Source: Eukaryota sp. TZLM1-RC (lineage: Eukaryota > Protista > Metamonada: BaSk clade). Taken from it: a stretch of 64,000 nt of DNA. The stretch's first letter is position 1. Each line of letters opens with the position of its first letter. The translations under genes were made by a program, and so were the position numbers. Shown piece after piece: positions 20,334-64,000 of the stretch. The stretch lies in contig JAUPSS010000003.1 of the NCBI GenBank assembly GCA_040285825.1, positions 2,418,001 through 2,482,000 on the forward strand, read 5' to 3'. The notes under the pieces are model-generated. The model saw only the letters and a list, made by a program, of their open reading frames with translations. It was not told where the DNA came from and did no database searches.

Positions 20334-20859
20334 TTGGTAACATTGGAATATCCGGCATTAAATTTCTTGAAGGTTTCAAAAGTTCAATAAAAGAAAGAGC
20401 AGGAAAAGAATTGAACTTCAATTTCTGGCACAATAAAATTGTTTTTGGTATTCTTAAAGCAATTCCAGATATATTGACCAAAGCACTGTTACAATTAGGA
20501 ATAGAGTATGAAAATCGCGCGCTTAAAAGATTTGATGATGTTGATGCGTGTATTGAGGATATTGAGTTCTAGTTTTTTGTTTAATGTTTTGTTAGTGTTG
20601 AAAATCAATTTCAATTTATAAAAAAATACCTGCTTTATGGAACTTCTAGAGTTATTAGTGACTTCATTTTAGCCCAGTGTAACCAATGTGTATTTAAATT
20701 TTGTGGTCAACAAAGATAGAAATATCATGGGGAGAGGCTTAAATGTGTTGCAAGCTCAGTATGTCACGTTGATTGTTGATAGCAAAGATTTTTTCTTTGG
20801 TAAAAATACGAATTTTATACTGAAAAAACAACTAAACAGAACAAAAAAACCAAAAAACA

Positions 20860-28658: not shown

Positions 28659-29049
28659 ACAGGTCAGTAGAGAATACACAAGTAAAATTTTCCAAAATAA
28701 TGTTGAATTCCCTCCACGTCACCACTGTACACAAGGTATCCCTCACTGACTGTAAACATCTGAAAACTCAGCAGGAAGAAGTTGTTCCAATCTTAGGTGT
28801 GTGCTGGTCCTTCTGAACTGTGCTGTTTGAACGGGTCACGAATCAACATTGGATTTTATACAACATTGATTTATCTGCTGATTGTGAAAATTTTGGTTTT
28901 GGTATTGCATTTTTCTCCTTTGTGGATTGAATTATTTTTGAAGATCCCTTGTCCTGTCTTTTGAAGAAAGAATTATTTGTCTAAAAGAATGTCATCTCAA
29001 GATCGGGAACAAGGAGAAGCGTACTAACAAAATTAATTATTATGAAATT

Positions 29050-39200: not shown

Positions 39201-40593
39201 TCATGTCAATAACAAATGCTTGATAGCGACCTCCTGCGATGAATCTTATATTGACAAGATCAGAAATGTGACCAGGGGTTTCTTTGGGAGTACTGGAAGA
39301 TCTCCCAAGTACATTTCCGCAGCTATAAACATCACCTTGTTGGGTGAGAAACACGGAGTAATCTTGACCACAACTTGCTTGAATGACAGTAAAAGATTCG
39401 TAATTAAAGATTGGCTCAACTGAACCACGTTGAGATGGCTCCAAGTACCCTGAGCAAAGCTTTCCCTCCTTGTTGTCTCCTACGGATAAAAGACCTCCCT
39501 GTTGAGTGATGAAGAGGGCATGATACTGACACCCAATCGCACGCAGGACTGGTTCATCAATGGGAACTAAAACTGGACTGAGATTGGAACCTTCCCCTCC
39601 ATCTCCCTGCTGACAGAACTGGTTTGATCCCCAAACTTGTACCGATCCATTACCAAGTGTAGCCAAGCCAGCATCTCCCCCTGCACTGATGTCGACAACA
39701 TCGTAAAGTTCTGAAATGCGTTTCGGGAAAGATTGAGGATATTCATCTCCGTGACCAAGCCTTCCTGCAGCCCCTAATCCCCATGAGTAAACAGTCCCAT
39801 TTCGTGTTCTAGCAAGACTGTATTCCCAGTTAGCAGCCACCTGAACAACGTCAGACAAATCAACAAGTGTAGGTGAAAAAGAATCATCATCTACAACACG
39901 CCCAAGCTGACCATGCTCATTGCTTCCCCACGAGTACAACCTACCATCGCAAGTAACGCCAAGTGAATGGTGACTACCTCCAGTTATGTGACAAAAAGCA
40001 TGGCTAGAGTCCAAAAGTTCAGGTGAATGTGATGAATCTTCCCTCCCTATACCAGTTCGACCATCAGAACCAACACCCCATGCCTTGATGTCACCTGAAG
40101 GAGAAGAACCCTCTTGAATAATAAGTTCAGAGCCAGAAACAAGTTGCAATGAAGAGGAAGTCAGATGTATAACAGTCGATAATCTGCACATTTGCAAAAC
40201 AGAGATGTTGGTGCATAGATGAGTAGATCCATCTACATTTAGATTGGAGAAAGAAACACTGCTTTGTTCAGTATTTGACTCAATAATGACATTATCCAGA
40301 GTTACTGTACCAGAAAGTTGTACATCTTTATGAAAGACAATTTCAAAGCGTATAGTAACATTGGAAGCATAGATAGAGTAAAACTGTGGAATGACATCAA
40401 CCACGATGACCGGACTTCGTTCTCTACCCATCAAAAAGAGACAAGATAAAGGAGTTGGAGGAGATGTCCATGAACTGTTCTGAGACCAAAAAAAGACCTG
40501 CTTGTCATATAAAGGTGGAGTGAGATAGATGTTTTCGCATGAAGCAAGACATAAAAAAGCCAAGAACAAGGATAGTAATGGCAGATTGATCAT
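33253..40593 (-). CDS. Giant intronless surface protein (2446 aa): signal peptide, RCC1-like beta-propeller, beta-helix-like region, Ig/IPT-like repeats, Cys-rich repeats, multi-pass TM C-terminus
   Basis: MINLPLLSLFLAFLCLASC; repeats such as GRLYSWGSNEHGQLG, GTVYSWGLGAAGRLG, GSVQVWGSNQFCQQG; YLSPLG..DCCG...PC; C..CP...F.....C..CP; several C-terminal hydrophobic helices. Confidence 0.88.
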   Translation of the reverse strand: MINLPLLSLFLAFLCLASCENIYLTPPLYDKQVFFWSQNSSWTSPPTPLSCLFLMGRERSPVIVVDVIPQFYSIYASNVTIRFEIVFHKDVQLSGTVTLDNVIIESNTEQSSVSFSNLNVDGSTHLCTNISVLQMCRLSTVIHLTSSSLQLVSGSELIIQEGSSPSGDIKAWGVGSDGRTGIGREDSSHSPELLDSSHAFCHITGGSHHSLGVTCDGRLYSWGSNEHGQLGRVVDDDSFSPTLVDLSDVVQVAANWEYSLARTRNGTVYSWGLGAAGRLGHGDEYPQSFPKRISELYDVVDISAGGDAGLATLGNGSVQVWGSNQFCQQGDGGEGSNLSPVLVPIDEPVLRAIGCQYHALFITQQGGLLSVGDNKEGKLCSGYLEPSQRGSVEPIFNYESFTVIQASCGQDYSVFLTQQGDVYSCGNVLGRSSSTPKETPGHISDLVNIRFIAGGRYQAFVIDMNNQVYSWDVGSSSVTLDPELSQERVATIDTGDYHFFMRSPRPPAVYKTGNSSILVDGVMRNNYDNDVELEADVVISSDGEFESNSGLLLLKSHILNSGIITSTGTAQVVVQSLLDLIGGLLSSDNEVVVEANAKLTGFGKISSDLQIRGLLQPKSQVLQITGDLLLTDSSELSLVSRRSETVKLVVNGDVTANGFISIDYSDLFLPPNFKIQPFLYNSFSSHSGILFDVICSSFFDIEITSAYLEVETLHQVLPYLGQVSYLSPLGTNEDCCGTYAMPCSSFSKIYERMGNVGTIYLFEGDYNEAHFDVDFINSNFTFSGSAESSPEIYITGDIRVFNSFINFSNFSTISISQLFFEYSNITFSHLLTPLTITSLYLVQSNLALNTSLPVLFGSLQLDSLSSVDGPAQYLNMYWLKEHVNDISEDCIDVDEYSIKFDFFNAELIDYFVDIQVAHSLDYEFILAENQFILVLRDIYPLDQSSSLLSLQFSAPGVNFLESKFLLICSPFIEQTVPSVYQFQDTIFIFGRNIFPRIEFLNLNFDLEVSLNIVQMNYSMIEVEIYNLCNISFTGLQVSVSNGHMNSNSFTIPILFPEYSTKPMEINPSVSNMELSLNTSIPLSILSKCNAVTIASNVDLDWYVEDPNIFILSFDLSGIYTLKLLVQLSEEFVGHISVPVIDFIVSPLQDICFTKMTCTLSVCVEFEHMEISRYVPMGSSFLHILNYLYSNDKCIEIFFEVENQAAIYDLQLCSVHICSSPAGLPDIVNVDHLTPLLVQWRFGKTQAVLTLEGQNFANFHQNDWKRTLCFNNHSIDLLPDTMSDTSLSFEVIFDHKGIFPFTICSFGKCENHFHVSCDDFLTAPPVFFQNSQLKVHSGLNFFSLPLYLGSQLVLIDPGFTSVFVGSNVPAMTLYSHIIARPITSDYVPNFVGLNVPFEFSIDLETDGNIFNASLHSLSDCHVYCNLHGRFLNISAVGVSIETCVFELKLTHSHSELVKRLEVPVVDNPAIVVTSKTNFVITEQVRTTLLIDFELSCTKTSFQLGVDGFSITQNFTIIEDRDDRCFMKVDVVLEVNEVEEPIHIVYLYCKFPVFGEIFVSSIAIFDITFEIRDSTVSILEPHNVIVFTDTILPSNSVCTVEDFVFDSIIGADFIICNDVHITKYSPFTLLSIKLHDTILGTVNVPVEPVFGEMCFVEEHVSLLKLVDISLSSGQSPALFDTVRCCSTATQQCFTELGQGGVLRVSLKENHVIHLLRVSTNSSCAALMNFSPISIANVSAGSWMCQSFLNGFEDAVVCSAEVNLVNVGELVFLAFESVQIYEIEVYGYKVTKCLKPINDFVGVTVLESEVEIDGKFRFQEFEFASLNYFAQFFIQNYLSAGILTDSVVLSYQFVSDDCYYPDSFFSKTIEPSSAQNISLIDRNISISPSDTFILRFECTDSNFLRVSCFPNVFDQSNLITESSFSHNNFTLYDTNMLFHSKVESGDHSICLNIVDSVCFEFTLYFEYHQEFVINSLRELKCDRDNVFYATCKMIHFDLILVTRNLFSIEHNSISLSQVDVSVPEDIIFSVLNGESLEVVGPPLYVFEILFHFHNVSTSFEVQLFNCDSTRAHFNYACYCKLGTYLSSFGACQECPLNSFRSIPLSDDCINCPIGRVTRRPGATNSSLCVCEESRFDSGDACIECPKYGTCSFGNFLSFSNGFRFTPEFGSVSCPFRYSCKNNECRFNTQGPYCSECLPGTILFGYVCVGNDFGYVLLSLVSLVFVISLLSVSQLLVNQATKRKAKIRSKLNRSMSSIHPDYLAKRIRYLIPLTCPFRIVMILSILFNGNIVLVTLPLSFAASLFGHYIGFLLFCLLIIAVFHLLKWKLSLYHNADFRRSFFANTCLISGFTGLISKLNRGIFDIEVIMLIPLLVFVSILIMNQQRHLEELFSTFAILILLPLTSTPFIIYSAFQTVTFLILFFLRSFLNVIPTAFGLIFSFIYLIVYRK

Positions 40594-40811
40594 CTCAATC
40601 ACATTGAAATCATTATTATTGTGATTGCTGGAATCTATTTGAGAGGTTTCTTTTTCAACAGGAGCACAACCAACTTCCTCTCACACTTTCCCATCTAATT
40701 CACAGACCTTCAACCTTCTGAAAGATGTCTGACATACCCCAGACATCTTTTTGTCGTTTACAGCGCTGTTGCTGCTTGCTGTTTGGTGTGCCTGTGACGC
40801 ACAACAATTAT

Positions 40812-43910: not shown

Positions 43911-44925
43911 TGGATACGTGTAAGGCGAAAAAATGATTCCAGAATATTTGAATCGACTCATTAAGGACTTCACTAGTGAAACCTTGCTTTTGCACAAACA
44001 GTTTATAAAAGGTAACTACTAGTACCAACTATTCTCATTCTTAAATCTAAATCCAGCGCCACTGAAATCAACGGCAGAAATCCTCAATGAGAAGATATCT
44101 GAAGTCAGTCGAAGCAGGGAATTTCTGTCAAATATTGAAATAATAATTGAAAAAGTTTACTCAGTAAGTCACTGCAGGCATATGTTCAATGGCACTGATG
44201 GTGATGAAGTTTTCATAGTACAGTAAGTGATTTGTTATGACAACGTGTTTGTTTATAGAACTTTAGTTTTCAAGACCATTCGGACCAGAGTTGGACCGGA
44301 AAAGTAGAGTTTCTTCCATTTTTTTTCATTATGACTGGATATTTTGATGTTTATGTCTTCAGCAGGAAATGAACAACCTCAAAACTGTTGAAAGTTCAGT
44401 GTATTTGATTGATTATTGATAGGAAAAGTGTTTTTCTATTATTAGATTATTAATAGATTTTTTATTAGTATTATATATTACATTTTCAATTATCAATTAT
44501 TCTATTTCTATTATCATTTTGGATACATTATTTCTTCAGTATTGAAATCTGAAAAGTCCGACCAGATGTATGGTCTAACCATCCGTCCAACCATTCATTA
44601 CAATGTTTAGTGAACCATTTCAAACCTCCTTATTCAAAATCACGGTGACCAACCACCCATCTGGTTGATCAGACGTATTGTCTTAGTTCGGCCGATCTAG
44701 TTGATTTAATCCAATATTGACTGAAGTTATTTTTTAAAACCAATATCTGGAGACAACGCTTTTTTATTTTATTTTATTCTTATTTAAAAATTTCAGTTTC
44801 ATCTTGTGTTGAAACTGGCGACAGCACAATAGTGTGTGGTAATGAAAGGCCTCAGTATCTGTGTAGTAGATAGTTTTGGTAATTATTCCACACGAAAATT
44901 GATCGTGTATTTATGGAAATTTCCC

Positions 44926-47361
44926 ATGAACATCCAATGCTTTGAATGTAACTCTAGAAAGTCTCTTGTTGCCATAAACGACTCTTATCTTGCTTTGAGC
45001 TATGGTCACTCCATCATCATACACTCACATGTCTCAGACGATACCTTCACCATTGACCTCGCCTCTCCGGCTCTACAGATTGTCTTTTCTTCGCCAAATA
45101 CTCTCTTTACTCTTACTTCCACACATGTCCTTTCCCACACCATCTCCTCCTCTGAAATAACCCCCAACCACTCTATCCTACTGTCCACTATCTTTGCTGC
45201 CCTCCATCCCACCCCCAACCCTTTCTCTTTCAACATCTTCCCTTCACATCCTTCACTACTCTTCCTTTACTCAGACTCTACCATTATCATTATAGATCTC
45301 ATTCACCCTGTACGTATTGCCTCTATTCTCGACTCTCAAACTAATTCGTTTATTACTTCATCTAATCTAATTTTGGATCAAAATCTTTTAATTACTTCTC
45401 ATTCTGACGAGTCTATTTTGATTTGGGACATTTCAAAACCCTGTTTGTTATTTAATTATTTGTTTCCAAAGCCAATTATTTCAGTTAGTTTTGGTTGTAA
45501 TGACAGGTTTTTTGTTTTGACAAATGAAGGAAAAATTCGAATTTTTGAAATTTTAGCTGACAGAGTAGAGCTCACATCAACTGTAGATCTGAATATTTTG
45601 GCAATGGATCATGAAAAGCTCACCGACAAGTTGTCACCCTCAGTTGACATCCCTGTAGCTCTTGCAAAACCTTGGAAAGCTGCTACCACAATAGCTCAAA
45701 ATGATCACGCGATAGATCAAAATGATGACGTGTCATTTGGGAAAATAGAAGACTCTGTTCTCGATTTTCTTTGTATTAATAATTTTATTCCAAATCATTT
45801 TATCGTAATTTATTCCAATTATTTTTATTTATTAAATATTTTGTCAATGTCTATTGTTGATAAAGTAGAATTTCCGTCACAAGTCGTCCCCATTTCTTTT
45901 TTCAAATGTTATTTAAAAGAAAATTATTTAATTATAGCGTCTATTTCAATGACAAAAAGAGATTTGATTGATTTGTTCAAGGTTGATCTTGACATCTGTC
46001 AGTCAAAAATTTCAAATACATCAGCGCGTGTCACGAAATTTTCACCAAATGAATTGAGCTCAACTACATCATTACTTTCGATTACCCCACCACCCTTAAA
46101 ACAAATATCTCAACCTCCACGACCTATGCCACGTCATCGCCTCATAAATGCAGTTCAAAATGCTGGAAGAGTGAGCTCTTCGCGTCGAAATGAGAAGAGC
46201 TCACAGCCTCAAAATTTCCCAGTTGCCTTGAGAACAGGGAAAGTTAAAAGCAGCGGTTATGCTCAGCCTATCACCAAAAATAAGGTCAAAAATAAGGTCA
46301 AAAATAAGGTCAAAAATGTCGAGTCTTTCAAGGACCGGATTACCTATTCAGATGTAGATCATGGAGAATTTATTTTTTTGTATAATTTACCAGATTCCAG
46401 TAGTTATTTAAGAATTTTACCCTTTTCTGGAAATTCAAACTTGATTTCGTTATTATCTGATGGTTCAATCAATTTTAATTGTTTGAGAAAAAAGGAAAGT
46501 AATTGCCAATCATTTGTAGTTAATCAATCAATTTTGACTGACATGACGACACGTGTTGATCCTCAGAGTCCTGATTTGTCTTGTTTCAACTCTGAAATTT
46601 TAGGTTCCTGTTTAAACGGAAAATTTCATTTATTTGAACTGGACCAAAATTCCACGTCATCAGTCAAGAATTCTATGAAAATTTCTTCTCCATCTGTCAA
46701 ATTTTCCATGAGCTCGTTTATTAGCTCAAACGTTGTTGCTTTGGGCTCAACCAATATTTTAAATTTTTATTCTTTTTCTTTGGGATCTTGGGTTTCTGAC
46801 TTAAATAAGTTGGTTAACAGAAGCAATTCGCGAAATATTCATGAAACCAAATTTTCTTCAAATATTTCAGCTATTGCCACGTGGCCACGCCTCCAATCAA
46901 ATATGATGGTCATAGCAAACACTAATAAAGAACTAACTCTTTTTGATCTTCACACCTGTCAACACGTGTCAACGATCCCTTCTTGTCACTCACGAAATGT
47001 TTGCTCTATTTCCATCAATGACGGATATGGGAACTCTTGCCAACCAAATATCTTTGCAACCTCTGCCCCTGATTCATCCATCCGGTTATTCGACATTCGA
47101 ACCAATCAATGTAACCTTTTCCTCAATGCTCATCGTGCTAAAACTGGCTCTCCTCAAGTTAGCCTTGATCCTCTACATAGATTCATTTGCGTGGGGGGTG
47201 ATGATGCAGCTTGTGTTTATGATGTAAGAAATGGAAAAAAGGTTTTGAATCTACGAGCTAATAGACAACCAACTGTATTGACCAGTGCTTGTTGTTTTGG
47301 ACTTGGTGGTTCTTTGGTGTGTTCCGGTTCAGATAGTTTAAATGTATTTGGATTTAAGTAA
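44926..47361 (+). CDS. WDR27: WD40-repeat protein, WDR27-like (811 aa)
   Basis: Two WD40 blocks; linker PV...GKVKSSGYA and C-terminal FATSAPDSSIRLFDIRT..C...AH...P..RFICVG.DD..CVYD recall WDR27. Confidence 0.72.
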   Translation: MNIQCFECNSRKSLVAINDSYLALSYGHSIIIHSHVSDDTFTIDLASPALQIVFSSPNTLFTLTSTHVLSHTISSSEITPNHSILLSTIFAALHPTPNPFSFNIFPSHPSLLFLYSDSTIIIIDLIHPVRIASILDSQTNSFITSSNLILDQNLLITSHSDESILIWDISKPCLLFNYLFPKPIISVSFGCNDRFFVLTNEGKIRIFEILADRVELTSTVDLNILAMDHEKLTDKLSPSVDIPVALAKPWKAATTIAQNDHAIDQNDDVSFGKIEDSVLDFLCINNFIPNHFIVIYSNYFYLLNILSMSIVDKVEFPSQVVPISFFKCYLKENYLIIASISMTKRDLIDLFKVDLDICQSKISNTSARVTKFSPNELSSTTSLLSITPPPLKQISQPPRPMPRHRLINAVQNAGRVSSSRRNEKSSQPQNFPVALRTGKVKSSGYAQPITKNKVKNKVKNKVKNVESFKDRITYSDVDHGEFIFLYNLPDSSSYLRILPFSGNSNLISLLSDGSINFNCLRKKESNCQSFVVNQSILTDMTTRVDPQSPDLSCFNSEILGSCLNGKFHLFELDQNSTSSVKNSMKISSPSVKFSMSSFISSNVVALGSTNILNFYSFSLGSWVSDLNKLVNRSNSRNIHETKFSSNISAIATWPRLQSNMMVIANTNKELTLFDLHTCQHVSTIPSCHSRNVCSISINDGYGNSCQPNIFATSAPDSSIRLFDIRTNQCNLFLNAHRAKTGSPQVSLDPLHRFICVGGDDAACVYDVRNGKKVLNLRANRQPTVLTSACCFGLGGSLVCSGSDSLNVFGFK

Positions 47362-47630
47362 GTTTTTGGGTTTATTTGGTATATTCTTTTAGGAATTTCT
47401 TTCATTCGAAAATTCTTTCTTAACTTTTTCTCATCAATTTATTTCTGTTGTCAATTTAAGCAAGAAATTTTCATCTTTGAAATTTTCATCTTTGACTGTT
47501 GGTCAGTTAAGATAAGATAAGTCTAACTTCTTTTTAACTATTTTTTGATTTTTACGTGATTCAATTATATCAAGAATAGACCGGGAATTTTTGCCCAAAA
47601 TGAATAAAAACTACATATGTTACTTATGCG

Positions 47631-48150
47631 TATTATCTCGTGTTACATAGGTACATTATCTCGTGTTACATAGGTACATTATCACGTGTTACTCGTTTTG
47701 TCCAGCTAGATTTCATTAAGTAGATTTCATTATCACGTGTTACTCCTTTTGTCCAACTAGATTTCATTAAGTAGATTTCATTATCACGTTTTGTCCAACT
47801 AGGTTTCATTAAGTAGATTTCATTATCACGTGTTACCTAGCTAGATTTCAATTAACTAGATTTCAATAAAGTAGGTTTCAATTAACTAGATTTCTATAAA
47901 GTAGGTTTCAACGTTTCCCAAAAATGAGAAAAGTAGGTTTCAATGAATTTCAAAATTAAAAAGTAGGTTCCAATGAATTTCAAATTTAAGAAGTAGGTTT
48001 CAATGAACTTCAGATGAATTAACAGATTTTAATTTTGACTTTATGATAATAGTTAGTTAGATTTCAATGAACTTCGACTGAATTAACAGATTTTAATTTT
48101 GACTTTATGATAATAGTTAGTTAGATTTCAATTAACAGATTTCAATGAAT
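47631..48150. repeat. Complex tandem repeat array built around a TAG(A/G)TTTCA core
   Basis: At least 15 core copies embedded in successive 23-, ~51-, 14-, ~30- and ~60-bp units; ATCACGTG motifs in the left part. Confidence 0.9.
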
Positions 48151-48182
48151 TTCATCAAATGTAATTAATTTAGTTTTAATAA

Positions 48183-48695
48183 ATGAGTTTTACTAAAATC
48201 ACTGTCAAAGCGATTAGAAAAAAGATTGGTCTTAGTAGACAATGTACTATGCAGAATTTTTTCGAAAACAATCCAGAAGGAACCTATCAAATAGAAGGAT
48301 TAGAATTTATTCGAATTAAAAAGGGGAATAAAGTAAATTATTTATATCGAACTATTACGGATGAACCTCAAGATTATCCACAGGAAGTTGAAGTTGAAAT
48401 TGATTATCAACAAGAACTAAAAGAATATGATGAAGAAAATATTAGACTGCATAAAGAAAATGAGAGTTTGAGAGAAGACTTAAAGAAAAGTCTAGCATTA
48501 AAACCAAAGACTGTTGAAGTTGAAAAGATAGTTGAAAAAGAAGTTCCAGTCGAAGACGAAAAGATAGTTGAAAAAGAAGTTGAAGTCGAAAAGATAGTTG
48601 AAGTTCCAGTCGAAAAGATAGTTGAAGTTGAAAAGATAGTTTATATAAATCGTTCAGATTTTTCATATCAACCACTTATTTTTGAAGAAGATTAG
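48183..48695 (+). CDS. Element-encoded orphan protein with coiled coil and VEKIVE(V/K) repeats; probably originally extended to 48787
   Basis: 170-aa ORF; GAAGAAGATTA repeated twice at the stop shifts off a frame reading YDVHYGSDRTYREKETVIEDFGDFIRF*. Confidence 0.7.
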   Translation: MSFTKITVKAIRKKIGLSRQCTMQNFFENNPEGTYQIEGLEFIRIKKGNKVNYLYRTITDEPQDYPQEVEVEIDYQQELKEYDEENIRLHKENESLREDLKKSLALKPKTVEVEKIVEKEVPVEDEKIVEKEVEVEKIVEVPVEKIVEVEKIVYINRSDFSYQPLIFEED

Positions 48696-48884
48696 AAGAA
48701 GATTATGATGTACATTATGGTTCAGATAGAACTTACCGAGAAAAAGAAACTGTGATAGAAGATTTCGGTGATTTTATTAGATTTTAAAGTATTAAAGGTA
48801 GAATTCAACATCAGTTTGACCAAATGTAATAAAGGTAGAATTCATCATCAATTTGACCAAATGTAATAAAATTAGGTATTAAAA

Positions 48885-49325
48885 ATGCCTTATCAATCAG
48901 GAATATTTGAACAGAAAAACTTTATCATTGCTAATGTCAATTATCTTGGAACGAGAATTAAAGCATCAGACATTGTGAAACAATATGGTCAATCAGCCTA
49001 TAATAAGATTAACAAAAATTTTGAAAATATTTATTCTTTAGGAACGATTTATCGTTTCGGTTCCTCAATCTTTACTGCCATTCCATCAGGAGTGAAAACA
49101 AGAGAGAAAATTTATTATGTTTTAGAGGAAGGTGAAGAGATTGATAGTGAGGAAGCTACTTATGCTGAACGATATGAATTTATTAAAGAACAAATGGAAA
49201 AGACAATTGAATTTCTTCATTTCTTGAAAAAGGTGTCAAAAGAAAAAGAGATTGACTTAATTGATGGACATTTGAATGAATTTAAAAGAACTATTAGAAA
49301 TATTCCAAAGCTTCCCAAAAAATGA
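48885..49325 (+). CDS. Element-encoded orphan protein (146 aa)
   Basis: ATG-initiated ORF sharing an upstream motif with 48183; converges on the PolB 3' end. Confidence 0.7.
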   Translation: MPYQSGIFEQKNFIIANVNYLGTRIKASDIVKQYGQSAYNKINKNFENIYSLGTIYRFGSSIFTAIPSGVKTREKIYYVLEEGEEIDSEEATYAERYEFIKEQMEKTIEFLHFLKKVSKEKEIDLIDGHLNEFKRTIRNIPKLPKK

Positions 49326-49429
49326 AATTTTTCATCAAAAATGATTTCTCCAAAAATGAATTTTTTTCTCCAAAGAATGAAATTTTCAACAAAAAATAAT
49401 TTTTATTCATTATTTATTTTTTTAATTTT

Positions 49430-51453
49430 TCAAATTTTTACTTTTCTAATGATATGTTTGTTGGTAGATACTTCATATTTTTCATATTTAAAATTACCAG
49501 ATAAATCAAATTCAATCTCTTTTCCATCATAAAGCGAATTCCATAATTGATAAAATCCTAATTTGTTAATTTTTATTTCTCTAGCTTTTTCAGATATTCC
49601 TTTCAACCGTTGATGTTGTTCTTCATTTTCATCTTCAATCACATAATAACCATTAATAGTTTCAATGTTGGGAAGTCCCTCCTCATCTTTTCCTAATGAT
49701 TTCATTCCGACTAGAACATCAGTGTAAATTTTCTTTCCTAAAATAATTGATGTGATGGCTCCAGCCTCACCTTTTCCACTATATTTGAAATCAGTATGAA
49801 ACTGTCCCATTTCTTTTCCAACTAATTTTCTTTTATAAGTTTCTTGATATTTTTTAGTTAGTTGTGAAAACTTAATATGCATACTATCAGTGTCAAGATA
49901 AGTAGGATAAATTCCTAAATCATCAGCCAAGCAAATGACTTCATTCATTATTCTTTTAGACATTGATAAGATATGAACTCCACAATGAGCAGAATTTTGA
50001 TGAGAGAAAGTACCATCTCTTATTTTGAATAATGTTCTTGGAATTTTTTCTCCTTTATCATCTTTTAAATCTGATGACATTTCTTGCCAACTAACAATCC
50101 TTCCATAATTTTCAGTTAAGAATTCATCAAAATCTCCATCAAAAATGAGATTATGTTTATCATTTGGTTTTAGAATAGTCTTTCCATAAGCAGCATTCAT
50201 CAATAATTTATAGACTTGTTCAAGAGGATTTTCATCTTTCTTCTTTTCCTTTCTAGTCTCAAACATCTTATTAACAATTTCACAAACTTTATCATTATAT
50301 CCATTCCAGTAAACACCTCTAATGAATTCAAATTCAATTTCGTGATACTTAATGAAATCTTCAAGAGCAATTTTATCAACAGTCACTGTGATTGAGTTTT
50401 CTAATTCAGAAGAACCAACCCACTCTCTATTTACATTATTTTTCTTAACAGCAATTAAAGGATGAGCTCTAGTCTTGTTAATTTTAGTAATCTTAATCTC
50501 AGCAATAAAGTATAAATGACCTTTAAGAATATCATTCAATTCATCTTTAGAATTAATGAAACTAGCCAAACCTGTTGGATAACCATTCACTCTAACAATA
50601 GCAGAGGGATATAAAGAAACTGCATCAAAATCACTAATGAAATCATTGATAATTTTTTTGTTATCGATATCTTTTTTTGTTGCTTGGAAATAATGTTTCT
50701 CATTTAGAAGAGATAATACTCTTCCACCTACAATAGCTTGAGAATAAAACTCTCTTAAAGAACCGTGAACTTTAGAAACCTTATCAAAAGCTCCAAACTT
50801 ATCCATAATTCTATGAGATAAAGATGAAATAGTTAATGAATTCCATATTTCTATTTCCATTTTCTATTATTTAAAATTTCGTTATTGAATATGTTAAGTC
50901 CATCTTCTAAAACAGTAACATCTCTATTATTATAATAACGACAATAATCCTTTGCATTGAAAGTTCTACCGAAATTATAGTTTTGAATAAATTCTCTTCT
51001 TTTATTTTCAGGAACAAAATTAGCTACATAATTCAAATCGTTTGAAATCGTTTCATCTTGAAATAATAGATTATAATATTCATAAGGGTAAATTTCTTTT
51101 GCTTCTTTTAATCCAAACATTTTAGGAAACTTTCGAAGAGGTTCTGGTATCATTTTATAACTGTCGCTAAATTCAATTCTTCTTCCTCTATTTACTCCAC
51201 GAATGGAATAAACTTGACCATCTTTTTCAACTAATTCGACATATTTTAAATGGTTCAGTAAGAAGCTAATATCATATTTAAGATTATGGAAATAAACCAC
51301 TAATTTGGTTTTATGTTTCGGAAGTAATGATAATTTCTTTAAGAAGACATCAACACACTGTCTTCCAAAATACAAAGAAATACAAGAAATACACTTGTCT
51401 GCTGTACATAATAAACTATGTTTTATTTTTTCAAAGTTGTCTTTGGGATGCAT
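49430..51453 (-). pseudogene. polB: Protein-primed family B DNA polymerase, frameshifted near 50855 and 5'-truncated
   Basis: ExoII YFHNLKYD, DSYKMIP..L..FP..FGL, ExoIII Y...DV.VL, motif A DFDAVSLYPSA, motif B KLLMNAAYGK, motif C YLDTDS, KKIY, KG. Confidence 0.93.
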
Positions 51454-51789
51454 AAAACAATGACTCTTTTTCCAACAATCACTGCTGTTAATAGGCTCTA
51501 GTCTAATCTTCTGAACTAAATCGTCACAGTTTCGAAATATTATCGCAACTTTATTTGATATATTATTGATTTATAAAACAAGCTTCTGCAAAGAAGTTTT
51601 AAAACAATAGAATATTTTTGGTGGATAATCACAACCAATTTCCCTTTTTTATATTTGACAGACCAGTTACCATTGTACAATTATGAATTTCAAGGTACCT
51701 TTCATAACATTAAAGAAACAACGAATCTTTGTGAAACAAATATAAAATTGTATTCTTCGACTGTAGTGAAAGCAGATGACAATGTTGGA

Positions 51790-51837
51790 GGAGGTAGACC
51801 AGGGTGGAGGTAGACCAGGGTGGAGGTAGACCAGGGT
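51790..51837. repeat. Perfect 16-bp x3 tandem repeat GGAGGTAGACCAGGGT
   Basis: Three identical units read directly from the sequence. Confidence 0.95.
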
Positions 51838-52263
51838 ATTTGTTTAAATGCACAAGATAGGTTTAGAAGAAGAGGAACAAAAACATCTAAAGCTGAATTA
51901 GTTGATTAAATAGTCGTTTTCTTCCAGTCTTCACAAACAAAGCCCAAAATATATCTTGAAGTAAAACGAAGAACTCTCCTTTACACTAGGGTTACAACTA
52001 TAGTAAGTAAGAACACACTATTAGGACACAATTAGGAACAATAATCACCAGAATGCAAACCAACAAAATCAATATTCCAGACGTAATTGTAAAAGCAAAG
52101 TAAGAACATAGATTAACCCAGTGTTATGTAATAAGTCTGTTTGTAATCCCCCTTTTACTCTTTACTGTGGTGATAAAGTAGTTTTAAAGACAAATCCAAT
52201 GAATTTGCTTAAATAATATCCTCAAAACACTTTGTCTCACGTTTCACATTTCCCGTTCTTTTA

Positions 52264-55200
52264 ATGTCCAGGCCGCTCCTCTTCAAGGACCCTGTTGAAC
52301 TTCCACTTCCACCTCAACGTGCGCCTTCTTTGTTATGGAAACTCCTTCTTTTCTTTCTTAACCTCTTTCTTCTTCCTTTGTCCTTTCTACGTTCACCAAA
52401 ACGTACTCAACAGCGTCACTTCTTCTCAACCTCCTCTGGACTCTTCTATCATTTTCACAAGTCTATCCATACCATTACTTCTTCATCACCTACCATTACC
52501 TTCTCCTCTCCCGTTCTCTCTCTATGTGTACACAACAACTACGTTTTTGTTGTCACAAAGTCATTTATCTTTTGTTTACACCAATCAGATTTCTCTATCA
52601 AATACAAGGTCAAAACTCCGAGAAAACTCAAGACCTGCCAGCAAGTGATGACGTGGCGTGACGACAGAATTGTTATTTTTACCTCCAACAACATTGGATT
52701 CTTTCAAGTGACTGAAGACGATCTTTTATTATCAAACATCATCAAACTTTCACATGTGGCGGTCACGTTTACAACTGACTGTGATCACGTCATGGCAGTC
52801 GGACCTTCCTTTTGTGATTCAATCCATCATTTTAATTTGACCATCATTGACTATGATTATAATCAAAAAACAATGTCCACGTGTCAAGATTTATGCAGAC
52901 GGTCAAAAACCCTCGTGCTTCCATCAAAATTGATTAGTTTCCAAAATTTTATAGTTTTATTTTTTTCAAATGGTAATTCTATTAAAATTGAAATTGAAAA
53001 TGATCTACTCCTCACCCACTCGATTCCTGTTCAACTGACCTCAATGGATCATTTGGAGGACCATGTCATTTGCGGTCTCCAAAAGTCAAGCAATCAGGTC
53101 ATCCTTTTTGACCTTCAATCAAATTTGATTGTTGATAAGTTTGATGATTGTTATGAGCAAGTGAGGGTTTTGTGCTTGCCGAGCTCTACTGTTGAGAGAC
53201 AATCAATTTTGATAGTTTCCGATGATCATAGTCCAATCATTTTTGACCGTGTTGACGAATCTGAAGCTGTCAAACAGGCAGTTTCCGAAGATAATTTCAA
53301 TTTGGCTTACCAAATATGTGAATCCTTTGAGTTGACCATGCTTCGACAGTGGGTCATTATTCAAGAGTTTTTTGATCTTGTGACACGTCATCAATACAGA
53401 AATTTGGAAGAGTTGATCTCTGTTCACTTGTCACGAAATGTTGACACTGCTGAGATTGTAAAAGAGATCAATCTCGAAAAATTTCACACAATTGACGAAA
53501 TTTTGATATTTTTGAAATTTTTGTCTGATCGTCTTGCCTCTGATGATGACGTTACCGACAGTCAAGTACCCTTTCCTCTCAATCAAGAAGTCAATCTATT
53601 TGATTGGGTTGGACATGTTATCACGAGAGCTGAAATTTTTAATGATCTCTATTCTGACGATTACACATTTGAAACATTCAAATCTTTTTGTCAGGTTTCA
53701 GAGTCTGAGCTTTTTTCCAAAATTTCAGCGAATTTTTCATTACCCTCCATTGAAATATTCATCAAAAGTTTCAATTTTACTACACAAATGAGGAAAGAGT
53801 TGTTAACTTCCTTTTCAGCTCATATTGATGACGTGTCAGCTGACGTTTTTGACCGACTTTTGACCCTTATTGACTCTCCAATGAATTTTGTCCATGATTT
53901 ATTAAATTCAAATTCAAGTCAATTTTTGAAAAAAATACTAGACATTCTTCCAAATTTTTGTAAAGAAGACGAACAACTTCAATCGAAAATTGTGTCACTT
54001 AATGAATATTTCGACCTTTTGCCCAACTCTGAGCTCTTTTTTTCTGATTTTTGTCGTTTCTCCGTGCAAGAAAAGATAAAATTAGCTTTTCAACAACAGT
54101 CTGTTGATTTTTTGATTGATTACATTGATTTTGACCAATTAAAGTCACTTGTTCCTTCCTATTTGAGCCAAGAAATTCAATCTGTCAATAAGGAAGAATT
54201 TTTCGAAATATTGAAGTATTTCTCTACTACAAAAATTTTTGTTCATTTTTCGACAGAAGTTACTGATCTCGTCAATGAAATTCTTGATTTTTGGTCCAAT
54301 CAAATTGACGATGTTATGATTGATTGTTTAATTACCGTATTAAGCAAGATTGAATCCAAAAGGACTACGATGTTGATGGAAAATCTATCACTCTGTGAGC
54401 TCTTTGTGTTAAATAATGTCAAATTTTCCTATGTGGACATCCTCAATATTTCAAAACGATCCCAATTGATTCGTACTACCTTGAATTGCGTTGACTCTCC
54501 AACAGTTTTATTGTCCTGGGTTGTTTCTTTAAATAATGGAAGATTATTGAATATTATTTTAAATGATTTAATCTTTATCTTTATTACTAAAGGATGGGGT
54601 AGTTTTCTACTGGAAAATGGAAAAATTTTGGAAGATGCTTTAGCTGATACCAAAACGAGCTCTTCTTGTAAAGTTGATATTCTGACACGTGTACATGAGC
54701 TGTTCGTGACCTCTATTTATGAACTATGCTCTTCTACCAAATTTTCATTGACACCGTCTCAAATTGAACTCTTTTCGACCATTGAAACTGATATATCTGA
54801 AATATTCAAATGTTCAAATCTGACCAAAGAATCTCTGTTTTTGTCATTTGTCCGATCACATCAATCAGATTTGATTGATTGGGAAAAGTGTCAAAACGAG
54901 TTGACTTTAAGCGACCTTCGCCAAGATTCTACCTTGCTATGTTCCTTTTGTTGCCACTTGGTTTTGAAAAAATCCAATCGAAATTTTGATCGCTCTTTTT
55001 CTAATAAAATGCTGAAATTCTTGACTGATATCTCCTTGTCAATCACTTTTCCAATCATTTTTGATCATTTTGCATGTACACTTTTACCACCATTACTTTA
55101 TAACAAAAAGCCTGAAATTTTTGCCGATGCTTGGGAATATTTCATGACTTGTAGTCTTTCAAAGTCTGATGACGTTGACAGATGTCAAATTTGTTATGTC

Positions 55201-57816
55201 AATGAACTCTTTTGGGATAAGAAGGGATCACTGTTTGAAATATTGGTCGACAGTCTGGAAATAATCACAGACCCAGACCTTGTCGAGGCAATTATCAAAA
55301 ATTTCTTTAAATCACATCATCATTTTCAGCTATCACGTGATAATTATGACCTTTTAGAGTCAAAACTTTTCGAAGTTTCACTCTGTAGATTTACTAATTC
55401 TGAACTGTCAAGCTCAAAAACTCTGATGGAAATCAATCAAAGTTCATTGACTTTGATTGACCAACTTTCTCCTTTCCCATCACCAGATCTGGCCAATTTC
55501 TTTTCGGACATGATTTTTTCAAATATTTTGAATTCTGATGTGGAATTGATGTCGATTCCACAAACAGTGGAATTAAGTTCAGAACAAATTTTCAAGTTAT
55601 TCCCTTTGTTGAATCCTTGTCTCATTCAACTGAAAATTTTGTTAAACAATCAAAATTTTGGTAGTGATCTCTTTACAATTTTGGTCTCTACTCTGGCCAA
55701 ATATTCCAAAATTTTGTCAATTGATGCATACAAGCTCAAAAAACACACTCTAACAGCTCATTTGACCAGCCTTGATTATTTCATCTCCAAATTTTTGTCA
55801 AATTTTCCTGCTGTTGTAACTGAAATTTTGGAAATGGCTCGAACTTTTTTCAATTCTTTATTAGACACCAAGTCCAACAAATCACTAAATTTGTTTTTAA
55901 AATCCAATCCGAAATTTTCGTCATGTCAGTTAATCAATCTATTCCAAAACAATCAAATTTCCAATCAATTCAGGACCATTCTCACGTCATCAGCTTGTCC
56001 ATGTTTTGTGTTTGCTTCGTATTTTAAGCCTGAAAATTTGGATTCAATCATTGTTGATTGGAAAAATAACGTGATTGAGGATGAAGTTGCTGTCAAAAAA
56101 TTGGTCGTATCATGTTATGTCACTCTTGAGCTCGAATCTGAATTACGTGTTGTCAGGGACTTTAGTAGAGATCAGTCAAAAAATTTATCAAAAATTTCAT
56201 CTCCACAGAAAAATTCCTTAAATTCATTGGCATTACTAGCACTGGATTACCCCAATAGCCACCTATTTGAATTTTTGAAGAGTCTGCTTCATCAGGTCAA
56301 AAATGAAGGTCAAAATGATGATGTGTCAGTAGTCTCCGTTAGTCAAGATCATTTGATTAATCTGTTAAATCATGATGTTTGGGCTAATTTAATTTTTGGC
56401 TCTGAAGAATCCAGCTGGCTACAGTTGGTTGATGTTGTGCTAAATTTTGATCAATCAAATGTGATTCCTTTAGTAGAGCTCATGACAAGTGTCACTGAGC
56501 TGGACAATGCACCTCAGTTACCAAGTGTCAAAATTTTGTTATTGAAATGTTTGGAAAAACTCACAGAAGTCGATATGATTGAATTTTTGATTGAAACTGT
56601 TTTTGACCGTTTGACTAGTGACGACTGGTCTTCTGTTGTCAATCAAATCACGTCATGTTCAAAATTTTCGCCATCTGTAGTCCAATTTATTATTCAATTT
56701 TTGCAAACCAGTATCAGTGACTCTGACAACCTCAAAATTTCCTTGAATGAGCTTGAGTTGATCTCTTCTTGGGCTTTTGAGTGGGATAAAATTTTGCAGA
56801 ATTTCAATGAATTCTATTTCAACGCTTTATCTCGCAAATTTTCATTATGTGAGCTCATTTATGATCTCTTGAGTAGTTTTGCAATCAATTCTGATGACGT
56901 TCTTGAACTTATTGCCTCAAATCCATTCGACACTGTGGATTCTGTTGAGGAATTTTTGATGGATTTGTTGGAGACGAAAATTTCAACAGGTTGTGACCAG
57001 CTCACCCAAAATTTCATTCAAAATTTGGCTAATTTCTCGTTTCTTCATGAAAATTTGGTTCAAATCGCTCGAACCGCTCACTATCCTATGGCTCTACGTA
57101 AAATGGTGTTCTCAGAACTTCAAAATCAATCAAATTCTCAGTCAGTTTTGACCCATGGTGACGTCAGCATGATCCAGGAATTGGAACTATTAGAAAAATT
57201 TGACACTCATCCACTACGTGAGTTTTTGTTACCATCAGTTGTAGAAAAATGGGCTTCTGAACCTCAAATTTTTGTTAATCTGTCAGAAAAGCTCAATTTG
57301 ATCACATCATATTCTGAACTTTCGCCGATCTTAATCACCTATCAATCAGTTTTTGATGACATACTTGATCAACATGTGGAAGTTTTTACCAAAATTTTCG
57401 ATGTGTTTTTTGAAATTTTCGACGATCCCACTACTATTACAGATATACTATCTTTCCAAATTTTTGAATGTGGGAAAATTTCTTTGCCAAAACTTAAAGA
57501 ATTGGAATCTTATCAGAAAATACCAGATGAAATTAAATTTTTTGTTTGTGTTTTCTTTGACAAAGTAGAGCTCACACTGGCAAAGAGAACAGAATTATTT
57601 GAAAATTTGTTTGTTTCGTTCTTGAAAAAGGGTTTTGCCAACAAATTTTGTGGACACTTGTTTAGTTTGATGTTGCAGATAACCTCAAAATTTGAAATAT
57701 TCGATGTTGTGATTGAAAATTTGGATAGGGGTATTGAAAAGTCAATGATGGTTATGGCTCAAAAGAGATCACGTTCAGAAATATCCCGAAATATGTGTTG
57801 TGTTGACAATCTCTAA
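52264..57816 (+). CDS. Large beta-propeller + alpha-solenoid protein (1850 aa), NBAS/Sec39 (or Rod/KNTC1)-like
   Basis: Beta-rich N-terminal ~330 aa, then AVSEDNFNLAYQICESFEL and RAEIF...Y.FETFKSF...IEIF motifs resembling the NBAS/Rod junction; long helical remainder. Confidence 0.55.
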   Translation: MSRPLLFKDPVELPLPPQRAPSLLWKLLLFFLNLFLLPLSFLRSPKRTQQRHFFSTSSGLFYHFHKSIHTITSSSPTITFSSPVLSLCVHNNYVFVVTKSFIFCLHQSDFSIKYKVKTPRKLKTCQQVMTWRDDRIVIFTSNNIGFFQVTEDDLLLSNIIKLSHVAVTFTTDCDHVMAVGPSFCDSIHHFNLTIIDYDYNQKTMSTCQDLCRRSKTLVLPSKLISFQNFIVLFFSNGNSIKIEIENDLLLTHSIPVQLTSMDHLEDHVICGLQKSSNQVILFDLQSNLIVDKFDDCYEQVRVLCLPSSTVERQSILIVSDDHSPIIFDRVDESEAVKQAVSEDNFNLAYQICESFELTMLRQWVIIQEFFDLVTRHQYRNLEELISVHLSRNVDTAEIVKEINLEKFHTIDEILIFLKFLSDRLASDDDVTDSQVPFPLNQEVNLFDWVGHVITRAEIFNDLYSDDYTFETFKSFCQVSESELFSKISANFSLPSIEIFIKSFNFTTQMRKELLTSFSAHIDDVSADVFDRLLTLIDSPMNFVHDLLNSNSSQFLKKILDILPNFCKEDEQLQSKIVSLNEYFDLLPNSELFFSDFCRFSVQEKIKLAFQQQSVDFLIDYIDFDQLKSLVPSYLSQEIQSVNKEEFFEILKYFSTTKIFVHFSTEVTDLVNEILDFWSNQIDDVMIDCLITVLSKIESKRTTMLMENLSLCELFVLNNVKFSYVDILNISKRSQLIRTTLNCVDSPTVLLSWVVSLNNGRLLNIILNDLIFIFITKGWGSFLLENGKILEDALADTKTSSSCKVDILTRVHELFVTSIYELCSSTKFSLTPSQIELFSTIETDISEIFKCSNLTKESLFLSFVRSHQSDLIDWEKCQNELTLSDLRQDSTLLCSFCCHLVLKKSNRNFDRSFSNKMLKFLTDISLSITFPIIFDHFACTLLPPLLYNKKPEIFADAWEYFMTCSLSKSDDVDRCQICYVNELFWDKKGSLFEILVDSLEIITDPDLVEAIIKNFFKSHHHFQLSRDNYDLLESKLFEVSLCRFTNSELSSSKTLMEINQSSLTLIDQLSPFPSPDLANFFSDMIFSNILNSDVELMSIPQTVELSSEQIFKLFPLLNPCLIQLKILLNNQNFGSDLFTILVSTLAKYSKILSIDAYKLKKHTLTAHLTSLDYFISKFLSNFPAVVTEILEMARTFFNSLLDTKSNKSLNLFLKSNPKFSSCQLINLFQNNQISNQFRTILTSSACPCFVFASYFKPENLDSIIVDWKNNVIEDEVAVKKLVVSCYVTLELESELRVVRDFSRDQSKNLSKISSPQKNSLNSLALLALDYPNSHLFEFLKSLLHQVKNEGQNDDVSVVSVSQDHLINLLNHDVWANLIFGSEESSWLQLVDVVLNFDQSNVIPLVELMTSVTELDNAPQLPSVKILLLKCLEKLTEVDMIEFLIETVFDRLTSDDWSSVVNQITSCSKFSPSVVQFIIQFLQTSISDSDNLKISLNELELISSWAFEWDKILQNFNEFYFNALSRKFSLCELIYDLLSSFAINSDDVLELIASNPFDTVDSVEEFLMDLLETKISTGCDQLTQNFIQNLANFSFLHENLVQIARTAHYPMALRKMVFSELQNQSNSQSVLTHGDVSMIQELELLEKFDTHPLREFLLPSVVEKWASEPQIFVNLSEKLNLITSYSELSPILITYQSVFDDILDQHVEVFTKIFDVFFEIFDDPTTITDILSFQIFECGKISLPKLKELESYQKIPDEIKFFVCVFFDKVELTLAKRTELFENLFVSFLKKGFANKFCGHLFSLMLQITSKFEIFDVVIENLDRGIEKSMMVMAQKRSRSEISRNMCCVDNL

Positions 57817-63457: not shown

Positions 63458-64000
63458 TGGATGTTGATCTTCCTCAGTGATCACTAAATTGAAATCTTTG
63501 TGCCGTAATAGAAAAGTAATTGATTGTATATGGTATAGAAAACATTCTTACATAATAGAGATGTTATGTTTAAATCTGAGGGTTTATTGTGAATTAAAGA
63601 ATCTGCTCAAAAGATTTGATGAAAAAAATGATAAATAGATGCTGAAATATTCTCTACAAAGTAGTTACCTTAGTTTCACATGACATAATGCTCTAATTCC
63701 AATTTCTATTTTACTGCCTTTATTTTGAAATCATTAAGTGGAATTAAACAAGGAGATTCCTCAGTGTTGGTTTTCGTGCACCAAACATAAACAATAAATA
63801 CAGAAGTTTATGTACGGAATATAAGAAATCAGCAAAGGAAAAGAAAAGCTAGAATTTAAATACATGATGACTTGATTATTTTCCTCAAGAGGCAAGTCAC
63901 GTTTAGCTACAGCTAACATCAGGACCTCTTTTATTCTGTCTGGCATTTCAATCCAATCTTATCACAAATTCAAGCAATGTTTCCTTGATTAAAGATGATT

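What the first reader, a model, noticed from the sequence alone, without database searches (positions are those of the whole stretch)
47630..51460. Endogenous Polinton/virus-like cassette: protein-primed PolB, orphan ORFs and a repeat array between two host genes
Seen: a PolB with exonuclease II/III and polymerase A/B/C motifs, two intronless orphan ORFs and a repeat block, lying between the WDR27-like and NBAS-like genes. Known: protein-primed PolBs belong to Polintons/Mavericks, Polinton-like viruses, adenoviruses and linear plasmids, not to host replication. Inference: this is one arm of an integrated, possibly undescribed protist DNA virus or linear element. Only one frameshift (in an A-run) is evident in the retained PolB, so intact relatives may exist in this genome.
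Basis: partly seen in the sequence, partly recalled or inferred. Interest (0 to 1): 0.8.

Follow-up and report, generated by a model that had tools for sequence, protein, structure and literature searches.

The report
Fossil end of a protist virus
Between two host genes lies a 3.8-kb stretch with a broken protein-primed DNA polymerase, two orphan genes and a repeat block, likely the dead end-piece of a small linear DNA virus (virophage or Polinton-like) stuck in a protist chromosome: a known kind of relic, from a distant lineage.

Summary
Observation largely confirmed. The polymerase is a true protein-primed PolB (PF03175; best solved fold phi29) in two ORFs split by one frame switch. About 420 N-terminal residues (terminal-protein and vOTU region) are missing, and so is the Exo I DxE motif, which 225 of 225 relatives keep. 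It could not self-prime.

Nearest relatives (33-44% identity) are metagenomic 12-26 kb linear viruses. Of 27 whole records, 18 carry a Sputnik-type capsid, 9 are classed as having inverted terminal repeats and 0 carry rve integrase; 1 of 26 carries a tyrosine recombinase. In 44 of 47 such contigs PolB lies within 2.5 kb of an end, which fits the layout repeat block - ORF1 - ORF2 - PolB as one genome end.

ORF1 and ORF2 are orphans with virus-like codon use and a shared 41-nt upstream motif. The window holds no capsid, ATPase, integrase, second terminal repeat or credible target duplication. No close second copy was found in the protein collection.

Verdict: a recent-looking, dead terminal fragment of a virophage/PLV-type virus, not a classical Polinton. 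New member of a known kind; modest interest.

The parts
44833..47361 (+). Left host flank: intronless WD40-repeat gene (WDR27 label unverified); not part of the element
   Evidence: GC3 0.32
47632..48136 (+). Nested tandem repeat block (units of 23, 51/42, 15/30 and 64 nt) sharing a TAGRTTTCAWT core; likely the inner part of the virus's terminal repeat or origin (inferred)
   Evidence: analogue: tandem subrepeats inside the 691-bp TIR of L037
48145..48185 (+). Upstream motif copy 1, ending in the ATG of ORF1; putative viral promoter or leader (inferred)
   Evidence: 78% identical to copy 2 over 41 nt; local score 44 against a maximum of 33 in 416 background comparisons
48183..48695 (+). ORF1, 170 aa orphan: possible N-terminal helix-turn-helix plus beta-sheet (weak leads), coiled coil at about 75-104, EKIVEV-type repeats at the C-terminus
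   Evidence: leads below cut-off: HipB E 0.036, DUF6262 E 0.007, Atlas 0.84; virus-like coding signal
48789..48870 (+). 37-nt tandem repeat upstream of ORF2, with a core related to the terminal block
48847..48887 (+). Upstream motif copy 2, ending in the ATG of ORF2
48885..49325 (+). ORF2, 146 aa orphan; not a detectable terminal-protein domain
   Evidence: only itself among 1.84 billion representatives; 2.6 bits against the TP/vOTU profile, reached by 53 of 200 shuffles; virus-like coding signal
49318..49395 (.). 19-20 nt AT-rich repeats in the convergent gap between ORF2 and PolB
49430..50863 (-). pPolB C-terminal piece (477 aa stop to stop): palm, fingers and thumb with Pol A/B/C motifs, phi29-like fold
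50851..51570 (-). pPolB exonuclease remnant: Exo II and III intact, homology from about 51414 down to 50869, Exo I DxE absent, no terminal-protein or vOTU region
51415..52263 (.). Unassigned stretch holding the right breakpoint (likely near 51430-51500); includes a 16-nt x3 repeat at 51790-51837; no PolB homology
52264..57816 (+). Right host flank: intronless gene of about 1850 aa, weak N-terminal beta-propeller hint (NBAS label unverified); not part of the element
   Evidence: GC3 0.34

Best explanation
The stretch 47630-51460 is likely one end of a small linear, terminal-repeat-bounded DNA virus of protists (a pPolB-encoding virophage or Polinton-like virus), likely pasted into the host chromosome by DNA-break repair rather than by its own integrase, and it is now a dead relic. 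Shown: the PolB is protein-primed, split by a frame switch, and lacks its N-terminal ~420 residues and Exo I; its nearest kin are capsid-encoding linear viruses that nearly all lack a detectable integrase and keep PolB at a genome end. Inferred for the free virus: the fused terminal-protein domain primed replication at the terminal repeats, the vOTU domain released it, and ORF1/ORF2 were small terminal genes under one shared viral promoter, ORF1 perhaps binding the repeated TAGRTTTCA sites. Inferred for the relic: during infection one genome end was ligated into an intergenic break, cutting PolB near Exo I. Without terminal protein, capsid, packaging ATPase or a second end it cannot replicate, excise or make particles. 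The open frames suggest a recent event.
For: pPolB identity.

Kin: 70 IMG/VR loci; 67 have PolB ORFs of 976-1632 aa, median 1114. Sputnik-type MCP in 18 of 70 fetched loci and in 18 of 27 whole records. A32 ATPases occur in others. 9 of 27 records are classed as ITR. The window PolB sits inside an SH-aLRT 99 clade of virophage and PLV PolBs.

Integrases rare in kin: rve 0 of 27, PF00589 0 of 27, OLV11-type recombinase 1 of 26, which is the query's own record.

End position: PolB within 2.5 kb of a contig end in 44 of 47 contigs of 12 kb or more, 28 with the 3' end outward as here.

Foreign composition: GC3 0.17-0.22 against 0.29-0.39 in 8 host genes. Virus-trained coding model scores ORF1 up to +28 and ORF2 up to +17 bits per 150 nt; intergenic maximum 5.8 of 105 windows.

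Fragment: no TIR pair; no capsid, penton, ATPase, protease or recombinase in 64 kb; intergenic gap 4.9 kb against 0.9-1.5 kb for four other gaps.

Recent: conserved columns missed 5 of 73 and 1 of 19, within the range of relatives. No stops in 2937 coding nt bounds neutral change at about 1.6% or less.
Against: - No read evidence for either junction or for the frame switch. Stops and frameshifts in protist EVEs are often assembly artefacts (PMC10120064, PMC8547959, passages).
- No empty-site allele, so neither boundary nor TSD is known, and repair capture is inferred only from absence.
- PF00589 missed the one recombinase found by motif, so divergent integrases may be undercounted; 23 of the 50 records sent were not held.
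- PolB moves between capsid lineages (10.64898/2026.10.13.758929), so kin of PolB need not be kin of the whole element.
- The narrower subclade has weak support (SH-aLRT 74) and the sister changes between trees.
- ORF1 and ORF2 match nothing in 202 related loci, so their viral origin rests on composition and position. RSCU correlation did not separate host from virus.
- The intergenic background was also the training set, which flatters that contrast.
- Contig ends may be assembly breaks.
Confidence: 0.55

Rival explanations
1. A whole provirus (Polinton- or EMALE-like) was inserted by an integrase, its own divergent one or one supplied in trans, and most of it was later deleted, leaving the left arm.
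For: Integrase-mediated EVEs are common in protists and some are truncated (PMC10120064, PMC8547959 passages). Pfam misses OLV11-type recombinases (PMC5636890 passage). The window holds a gypsy element with an rve integrase. In-trans integration is not excluded for RVP (PMC4409740 passage).
Against: No right TIR or TSD remnant: 1 shared 9-mer, against about 3 expected by my estimate from base composition. Integrases are nearly absent in PolB kin. The truncated EMALEs in PMC8547959 still had TIRs at both ends. Little decay in the kept part leaves little time for a second event.
Confidence: 0.25
2. Assembly artefact: a multi-copy or free viral genome was collapsed or chimerically joined into the host contig, or the frame switch and truncation are consensus errors hiding an intact element.
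For: Known for protist EVEs (PMC10120064, PMC8547959 passages). Reads could not be checked here. The kept PolB is nearly uneroded.
Against: The contig is 3.72 Mb. About 28 kb of host ORFs in the window run without a break. Loss of about 1.3 kb of coding sequence is not a polishing error. No other close copy is in the protein collection.
Confidence: 0.1
3. A small capsid-less pPolB mobile element (transpoviron- or linear-plasmid-like) whose PolB is naturally short, with ORF1 or ORF2 acting as a separate terminal protein.
For: A clade of natural ~700-aa pPolBs starting at Exo I exists. Capsid-less pPolB elements are described (PMC13215967 passages; 10.64898/2026.10.13.758929).
Against: The short-form clade is far from this PolB (patristic distance 2.65-2.9 against 2.1; outside the SH-aLRT 99 clade) and keeps Exo I DxE. 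ORF1 and ORF2 do not score as TP/vOTU (11 and 53 of 200 shuffles reach them). No second end.
Confidence: 0.07
4. The host keeps the cassette for a function, for example ORF1/ORF2 as domesticated DNA-binding or antiviral proteins.
For: Both ORFs are open with intact starts and a shared upstream motif, while PolB is broken.
Against: Composition is not ameliorated to the host. Open frames are explained by recency. No orthologue found anywhere.
Confidence: 0.03

Closest known systems
pPolB-encoding linear virophages: rumen virophages (RVP; PMC4409740) and freshwater PolB virophages (PMC5636890)
   Same: Polinton-type pPolB with an exonuclease domain. RVPs are linear with TIRs and have no detectable integrase (passages), as do most PolB kin here.
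   Different: No capsid, ATPase or protease at this locus; PolB truncated; sits in a nuclear contig. No named RVP sequence was in my trees, so direct kinship was not tested.
Polinton-like viruses with pPolB (Gossevirus and other PLV groups; 10.64898/2026.06.19.733378; PMC10120064)
   Same: Same PolB clade includes loci with A32 ATPase and non-Sputnik capsid-like genes; endogenous copies are common in protists; AT-shifted composition.
   Different: Typical EVEs are 15-30 kb with MCP, integrase or recombinase and often TIRs. Here 3.8 kb, one end, none of these genes.
Polintons/Mavericks (Polintoviricetes; Trichomonas Mavericks)
   Same: pPolB; terminal repeat region; residence in a eukaryote chromosome.
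   Different: No rve integrase, TIR pair, TSD or capsid module. Adintovirus PolBs are only 14-17% identical. Most sampled gut-MAG PolBs (probably gut-protist elements, untested) fall outside its clade. No sign of multiple copies.
Mavirus / EMALEs and other palm-only pPolB elements (pMVREs; PMC13215967)
   Same: Endogenous virophage-related DNA with pPolB; shared upstream motifs before genes (PMC8547959).
   Different: Mavirus-type PolB has lost most of its exonuclease; this one keeps Exo II and III and its kin keep all three. Mavirus ranks 35th in the fold search (TM 0.44, 14% identity).

Membership tests
[quoted passage not shown] | PF03175 match and phi29-like palm fold rather than RNA-primed PolB | tested here: met
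   66.7 and 35.3 bits against a cut-off of 25.8; model pLDDT 87; phi29 ranks 1-9 in PDB, TM up to 0.60, RNA-primed PolBs 0.38 or less. TPR1/TPR2 were not delimited residue by residue.
[quoted passage not shown] | Pol A, B, C and Exo II, III motifs | tested here: met
[quoted passage not shown] | Exo I DxE and fused N-terminal terminal-protein + vOTU region (10.1101/2024.03.18.585575) | tested here: not met
   DxE in 225 of 225 relatives, absent here; N-terminal profile at most 1.7 bits against 78-152 for 5 held-out relatives
Polinton/Maverick | rve integrase in the element | tested here: not met
   No rve hit in the four element ORFs; 0 of 27 kin records
Polinton/Maverick | Pair of terminal inverted repeats | tested here: not met
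   No inverted pair above 39 nt at 72% complementarity in 40000-64000
Polinton/Maverick | 5-6 bp target-site duplication | tested here: inconclusive
   Ends unknown; shared k-mers at chance level
Polinton/Maverick | MCP, penton, A32 ATPase, cysteine protease | tested here: not met
   20 profiles built from kin gave no hit better than E 0.099 in six frames of the window; no profile of named Polinton capsids was available
Virophage (Virophaviricetes) | Sputnik-type MCP, penton, ATPase, protease | tested here: not met
   Absent from the window. Present in kin (MCP in 18 of 27 records). The fragment is therefore not filed as a member.
Virophage (Virophaviricetes) | Dependence on a giant virus | not testable with these tools
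   Needs culture or co-infection data
Polinton-like virus | PLV-type MCP, minor capsid, A32 ATPase | tested here: not met
   Absent from the window; present in some kin
Mavirus-type palm-only pPolB elements (pMVRE) | Exonuclease domain largely lost | tested here: not met
   Exo II and III present; definition from PMC13215967 passages
Eukaryotic linear plasmids | PolB nested among plasmid PolBs; plasmid RNA polymerase or capping genes | not tested
   No named plasmid PolB was in the trees
Endogenous viral element (general) | Viral genes physically joined to host genes | tested here: inconclusive
   Contiguous in a 3.72-Mb contig between eukaryote-type genes; no read support obtained

The most novel reading that the evidence does not exclude
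This is a chromosomal fossil of an integrase-free, pPolB-replicating linear virophage lineage otherwise seen only in metagenomes, captured by host DNA repair. It would tie that virophage group, and by implication a giant virus, to this intron-poor protist. ORF1 and ORF2 would be a duplicated pair of undescribed terminal DNA-binding proteins under one viral promoter, recognising the TAGRTTTCA array.
Probability: 0.3. Interest if true: 0.55.

Novelty: new member of a known kind. Interest (0 to 1): 0.3.

Why it matters
Endogenous virophage and PLV pieces are common in protist genomes, so the kind of object is ordinary. Its value is as a host record. The PolB lies on a long branch (no relative above 44% identity in the collections searched) among viruses that mostly lack integrases and have no known host. 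A recent capture would show that such viruses infect this host lineage and can enter nuclear genomes without an integrase. The two orphan genes and the repeat array give probes for finding the live virus.

Tried and rejected
- Whole-genome search: no genome held.
- Reads: one DNA run held a small share (0.06) of the words; no RNA holder listed.
- Degenerate PolB N-terminus upstream of 51415: a resemblance seen by eye was rejected. Frameshift-tolerant profile score 12.6 against shuffles 13.6 +/- 1.6; anchored score 2.0, reached by 3 of 60 shuffles; the clade profile found nothing. An 'LFYA' in a neighbouring frame just before the homologous part may be the start of Exo I, but has no statistical support.
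- ORF1 or ORF2 as a separate terminal protein: rejected.
- ORF1/ORF2 paralogy: not established (131-177 of 5000 full shuffles and 394-713 of 5000 local shuffles reach the score; BLASTP E 0.53).
- Orphan searches were blank: PHROGs, Pfam, NCBIfam, PDB, viral contigs (83), related loci (22, 59, 60, 95), Atlas for ORF2 (29). The ORF1 model had pLDDT 44 and its fold search returned only coiled-coil matches, Z 4.2 or less.
- A DNA match of ORF1 to L003 is only a Glu/Lys/Val repeat.
- The upstream motif is not found exactly in viral contigs.
- No Rfam family in 47300-52300; no tRNA in the window. The repeat block folds worse than all 20 shuffles.
- Single-protein scan of viral contigs found nothing. 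The first Exo I count used a mis-set column window and was redone.
- WDR27 and NBAS labels could not be confirmed.
- Earlier scan findings: three look-ups, none returned anything.
Full report
What is there. The window is eukaryotic, gene-dense and intron-poor, with ORFs of 650-2475 aa. It holds a proteasome alpha-5 gene closest to animal and plant entries in PDB, then trypanosomatid, trichomonad and yeast (organism names recalled from the entry codes). I read the host as a protist (inference) and did not place it further. No whole genome is held. Between a WD40 gene (stop 47361) and a gene of about 1850 aa (ATG 52264) lies a 4.9-kb gap, against 0.9-1.5 kb for four other gaps. It holds, left to right: a nested tandem-repeat block (47632-48136), ORF1 (48183-48695 +), a 37-nt repeat, ORF2 (48885-49325 +), and a convergent PolB in two ORFs (49430-50863 and 50851-51570, minus). 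GC falls to 0.27-0.28 over 48-51 kb. GC3 is 0.17-0.22 against 0.29-0.39 in 8 host genes; RSCU correlation did not discriminate.

The polymerase. Both pieces pass PF03175. A profile of 51 homologues hits phi29 polymerase (E 7.7e-7) ahead of E. coli Pol II (0.025). The AlphaFold model of the C-terminal piece (pLDDT 87) matches phi29 first in PDB and protein-primed viral PolBs first in BFVD, all at under 20% identity, with Mavirus 35th. Against a profile of 67 full-length relatives the pieces cover positions 437-619 and 621-1066 of 1096: one frame switch, at a run of only four bases. Exo II, Exo III and Pol A/B/C are intact.

What the polymerase has lost. Positions 1-436 are missing. Exo I DxE is present in 225 of 225 relatives that cover it and in no frame here. 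A profile of the N-terminal region scores 78-152 bits on 5 held-out relatives but at most 1.7 on six frames of 51415-52260. Frameshift-tolerant alignments were at chance level. Krupovic et al. (10.1101/2024.03.18.585575, parts 2 and 3 of 5 read) assign this region to a PRD1-like terminal protein and a vOTU protease. Mapping my missing region onto those domains is an inference from position and from Cys and His motifs in the profile. A gene so cut could not prime its own replication. The kept part is not eroded: it misses 5 of 73 and 1 of 19 highly conserved columns, where 77 of 419 and 114 of 341 relatives miss as many. No in-frame stop in 2937 coding nt bounds neutral change at roughly 1.6%. 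The long branch (0.8-1.05) thus reflects a distant lineage, not decay.

Relatives. Protein searches gave 250 and 1332 hits among about 8000 scored candidates each; the 240 listed are 32-44% identical apart from the window's own protein, and none of the others lies on a contig above 23 kb. PolB, ORF1 and ORF2 are each single-member clusters on one 3.72-Mb contig. This argues against intact close copies in this assembly, but only as far as the collection holds its other contigs, and assemblies often lose multi-copy EVEs. Scans gave 70 IMG/VR loci (7 more), the best 80 of 537 metagenome loci and 52 prokaryote-MAG loci (probably misbinned). Uncut PolB ORFs were 847-1632 aa, and 125 of 127 were above 970. 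Eighteen of the 70 fetched loci carry a Sputnik-type MCP; others carry A32 ATPases and unnamed capsid-like clusters.

Integrases and genome ends in the relatives. Of 50 records sent, 27 were held. Sputnik MCP was found in 18, rve in 0 and PF00589 in 0; 9 are classed as ITR. PF00589 missed a tyrosine recombinase that I found by motif in L019, of the OLV11 type by my reading of PMC5636890 (passages). Used as a query it found only itself in 26 records and nothing else in the held loci. PolB lies within 2.5 kb of a contig end in 44 of 47 contigs of 12 kb or more, 28 with its 3' end outward. Of 12 wholly held contigs 2 had TIRs; that of L037 is 691 bp with tandem subrepeats in its inner half. The window's order - repeat block, two small genes, PolB 3' end 1.8 kb from the repeat start - fits one such end.

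Trees. All used the C-terminal piece only, 443 columns, with no named references. FastTree on 305 of 307 and on 432 of 439 sequences placed it in a subclade (0.99, then 0.92) mixing virophage and PLV PolBs. IQ-TREE on 72 of 432 gave that subclade only SH-aLRT 74, and a broader virophage+PLV clade 99 that excludes the ~700-aa short forms and 8 of 12 MAG loci. The sister differed among trees. Since replicases move between capsid lineages (10.64898/2026.10.13.758929, parts 1-4 of 5 read), the PolB cannot decide virophage against PLV. I put virophage at about 55%, PLV at 35% and other at 10% (judgement).

The orphans and repeats. ORF2 found only itself among 1.84 billion representatives. ORF1 residues 1-105 found only itself among 9 candidates. 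Both score as virus-like coding sequence under a periodic model trained on 199 low-GC viral ORFs (ORF1 windows up to +28, ORF2 up to +17 bits per 150 nt; intergenic maximum 5.8 of 105, though that background was also the training set). The same test shows PolB's coding signal fading above about 51275 and gone above 51500. Both ATGs end a shared 41-nt motif (78% identity; score 44 against a maximum of 33 in 416 background pairs; no third copy within 6 mismatches). That suggests one viral promoter, as in EMALEs (PMC8547959 passages). ORF1 has three sub-threshold helix-turn-helix leads and a predicted coiled coil, so DNA binding is a guess. Paralogy of the two is not established, and neither is a terminal protein. 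The repeat core is strongly enriched, unstructured and not an Rfam family.

What is missing. No TIR pair. No capsid, penton, ATPase, protease or recombinase in the 64 kb. No credible TSD. Read support could not be obtained, so junctions and frame switch are unverified. Bellas et al. (PMC10120064, passages) and Hackl et al. warn that EVE lesions are often assembly errors. Against that, about 28 kb of host ORFs here are unbroken, and a 1.3-kb loss is not a polishing error.

Reading. Most likely one end of a linear virophage/PLV genome was ligated into an intergenic break during infection and cut near Exo I (0.55). Whole integration followed by deletion (0.25), artefact (0.10), a capsid-less element (0.07) and domestication (0.03) are the rivals. 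The virus would have worked like the integrase-free linear RVP virophages (PMC4409740, passages) or pPolB-bearing PLVs (10.64898/2026.06.19.733378, outline and first third of Results). It is not a member of Polintons (integrase, TIR pair and capsid module not met), nor of palm-only Mavirus-type elements (PMC13215967, abstract and passages), and it cannot be filed as a virophage without a capsid gene. PMC9952930 passages were uninformative. Nine literature searches listed no paper evidently about this locus, but I read no supplements, and genome-wide EVE lists there may include it.

Verdict. A real, ordinary kind of relic from a distant, unnamed virus lineage. Interest 0.3.

Noticed in passing
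proteins P0063, P0074, P0076, P0086, P0092 and relatives: A supported clade (15 tips, 0.94) of pPolBs of about 690-710 aa that start with Met a few residues before Exo I. Many cluster members have exactly the same length (695 or 702 aa), so they look like natural forms without the terminal-protein/vOTU region, which the 2024 preprint says all eukaryotic pPolBs have. Their genomic context was not examined.
   Followed up: partly
window 3-4964: Gypsy-type LTR retrotransposon (gag zinc knuckle, protease, RT, RNase H, integrase) broken into four ORFs; GC about 0.45.
   Followed up: partly
window 16228-20383: Two fragmented non-LTR-like reverse transcriptase relics on opposite strands, with a 156-nt tandem duplication at 16949-17253.
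   Followed up: no
window 9460-13386 (+) and 25062-28718 (-): Two closely similar paralogous proteins of 1200-1300 aa with a hydrophobic N-terminus and a C-terminal membrane-like segment; the first has no Pfam family.
   Followed up: no
window 33253-40680 (-): 2475-aa intronless protein with RCC1 repeats, an ephrin-receptor-like Cys-rich domain and hydrophobic C-terminal segments.
   Followed up: no
window 62027-63547 (-): RING plus CUE domain protein, likely an ERAD-type ubiquitin ligase.
   Followed up: no
L019:1900-2778: Tyrosine-recombinase-like gene in a pPolB virophage that Pfam PF00589 does not detect.
   Followed up: partly
L151-L202: 52 loci in prokaryote MAGs carry eukaryotic-virus-type pPolB, up to 8 in one gut MAG; probably misbinned protist virus or Maverick DNA.
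   Followed up: partly
L037:1-691: Perfect 691-bp terminal inverted repeat starting AGTAGT, with tandem CACGTG-rich subrepeats in its inner half; the window's repeat block also contains CACGTG units.
   Followed up: partly
window 51577-51910 (+): Short open frame interrupted by a 16-nt x3 repeat, with a faint coding signal; possibly another decayed gene, no homologue found.
   Followed up: partly
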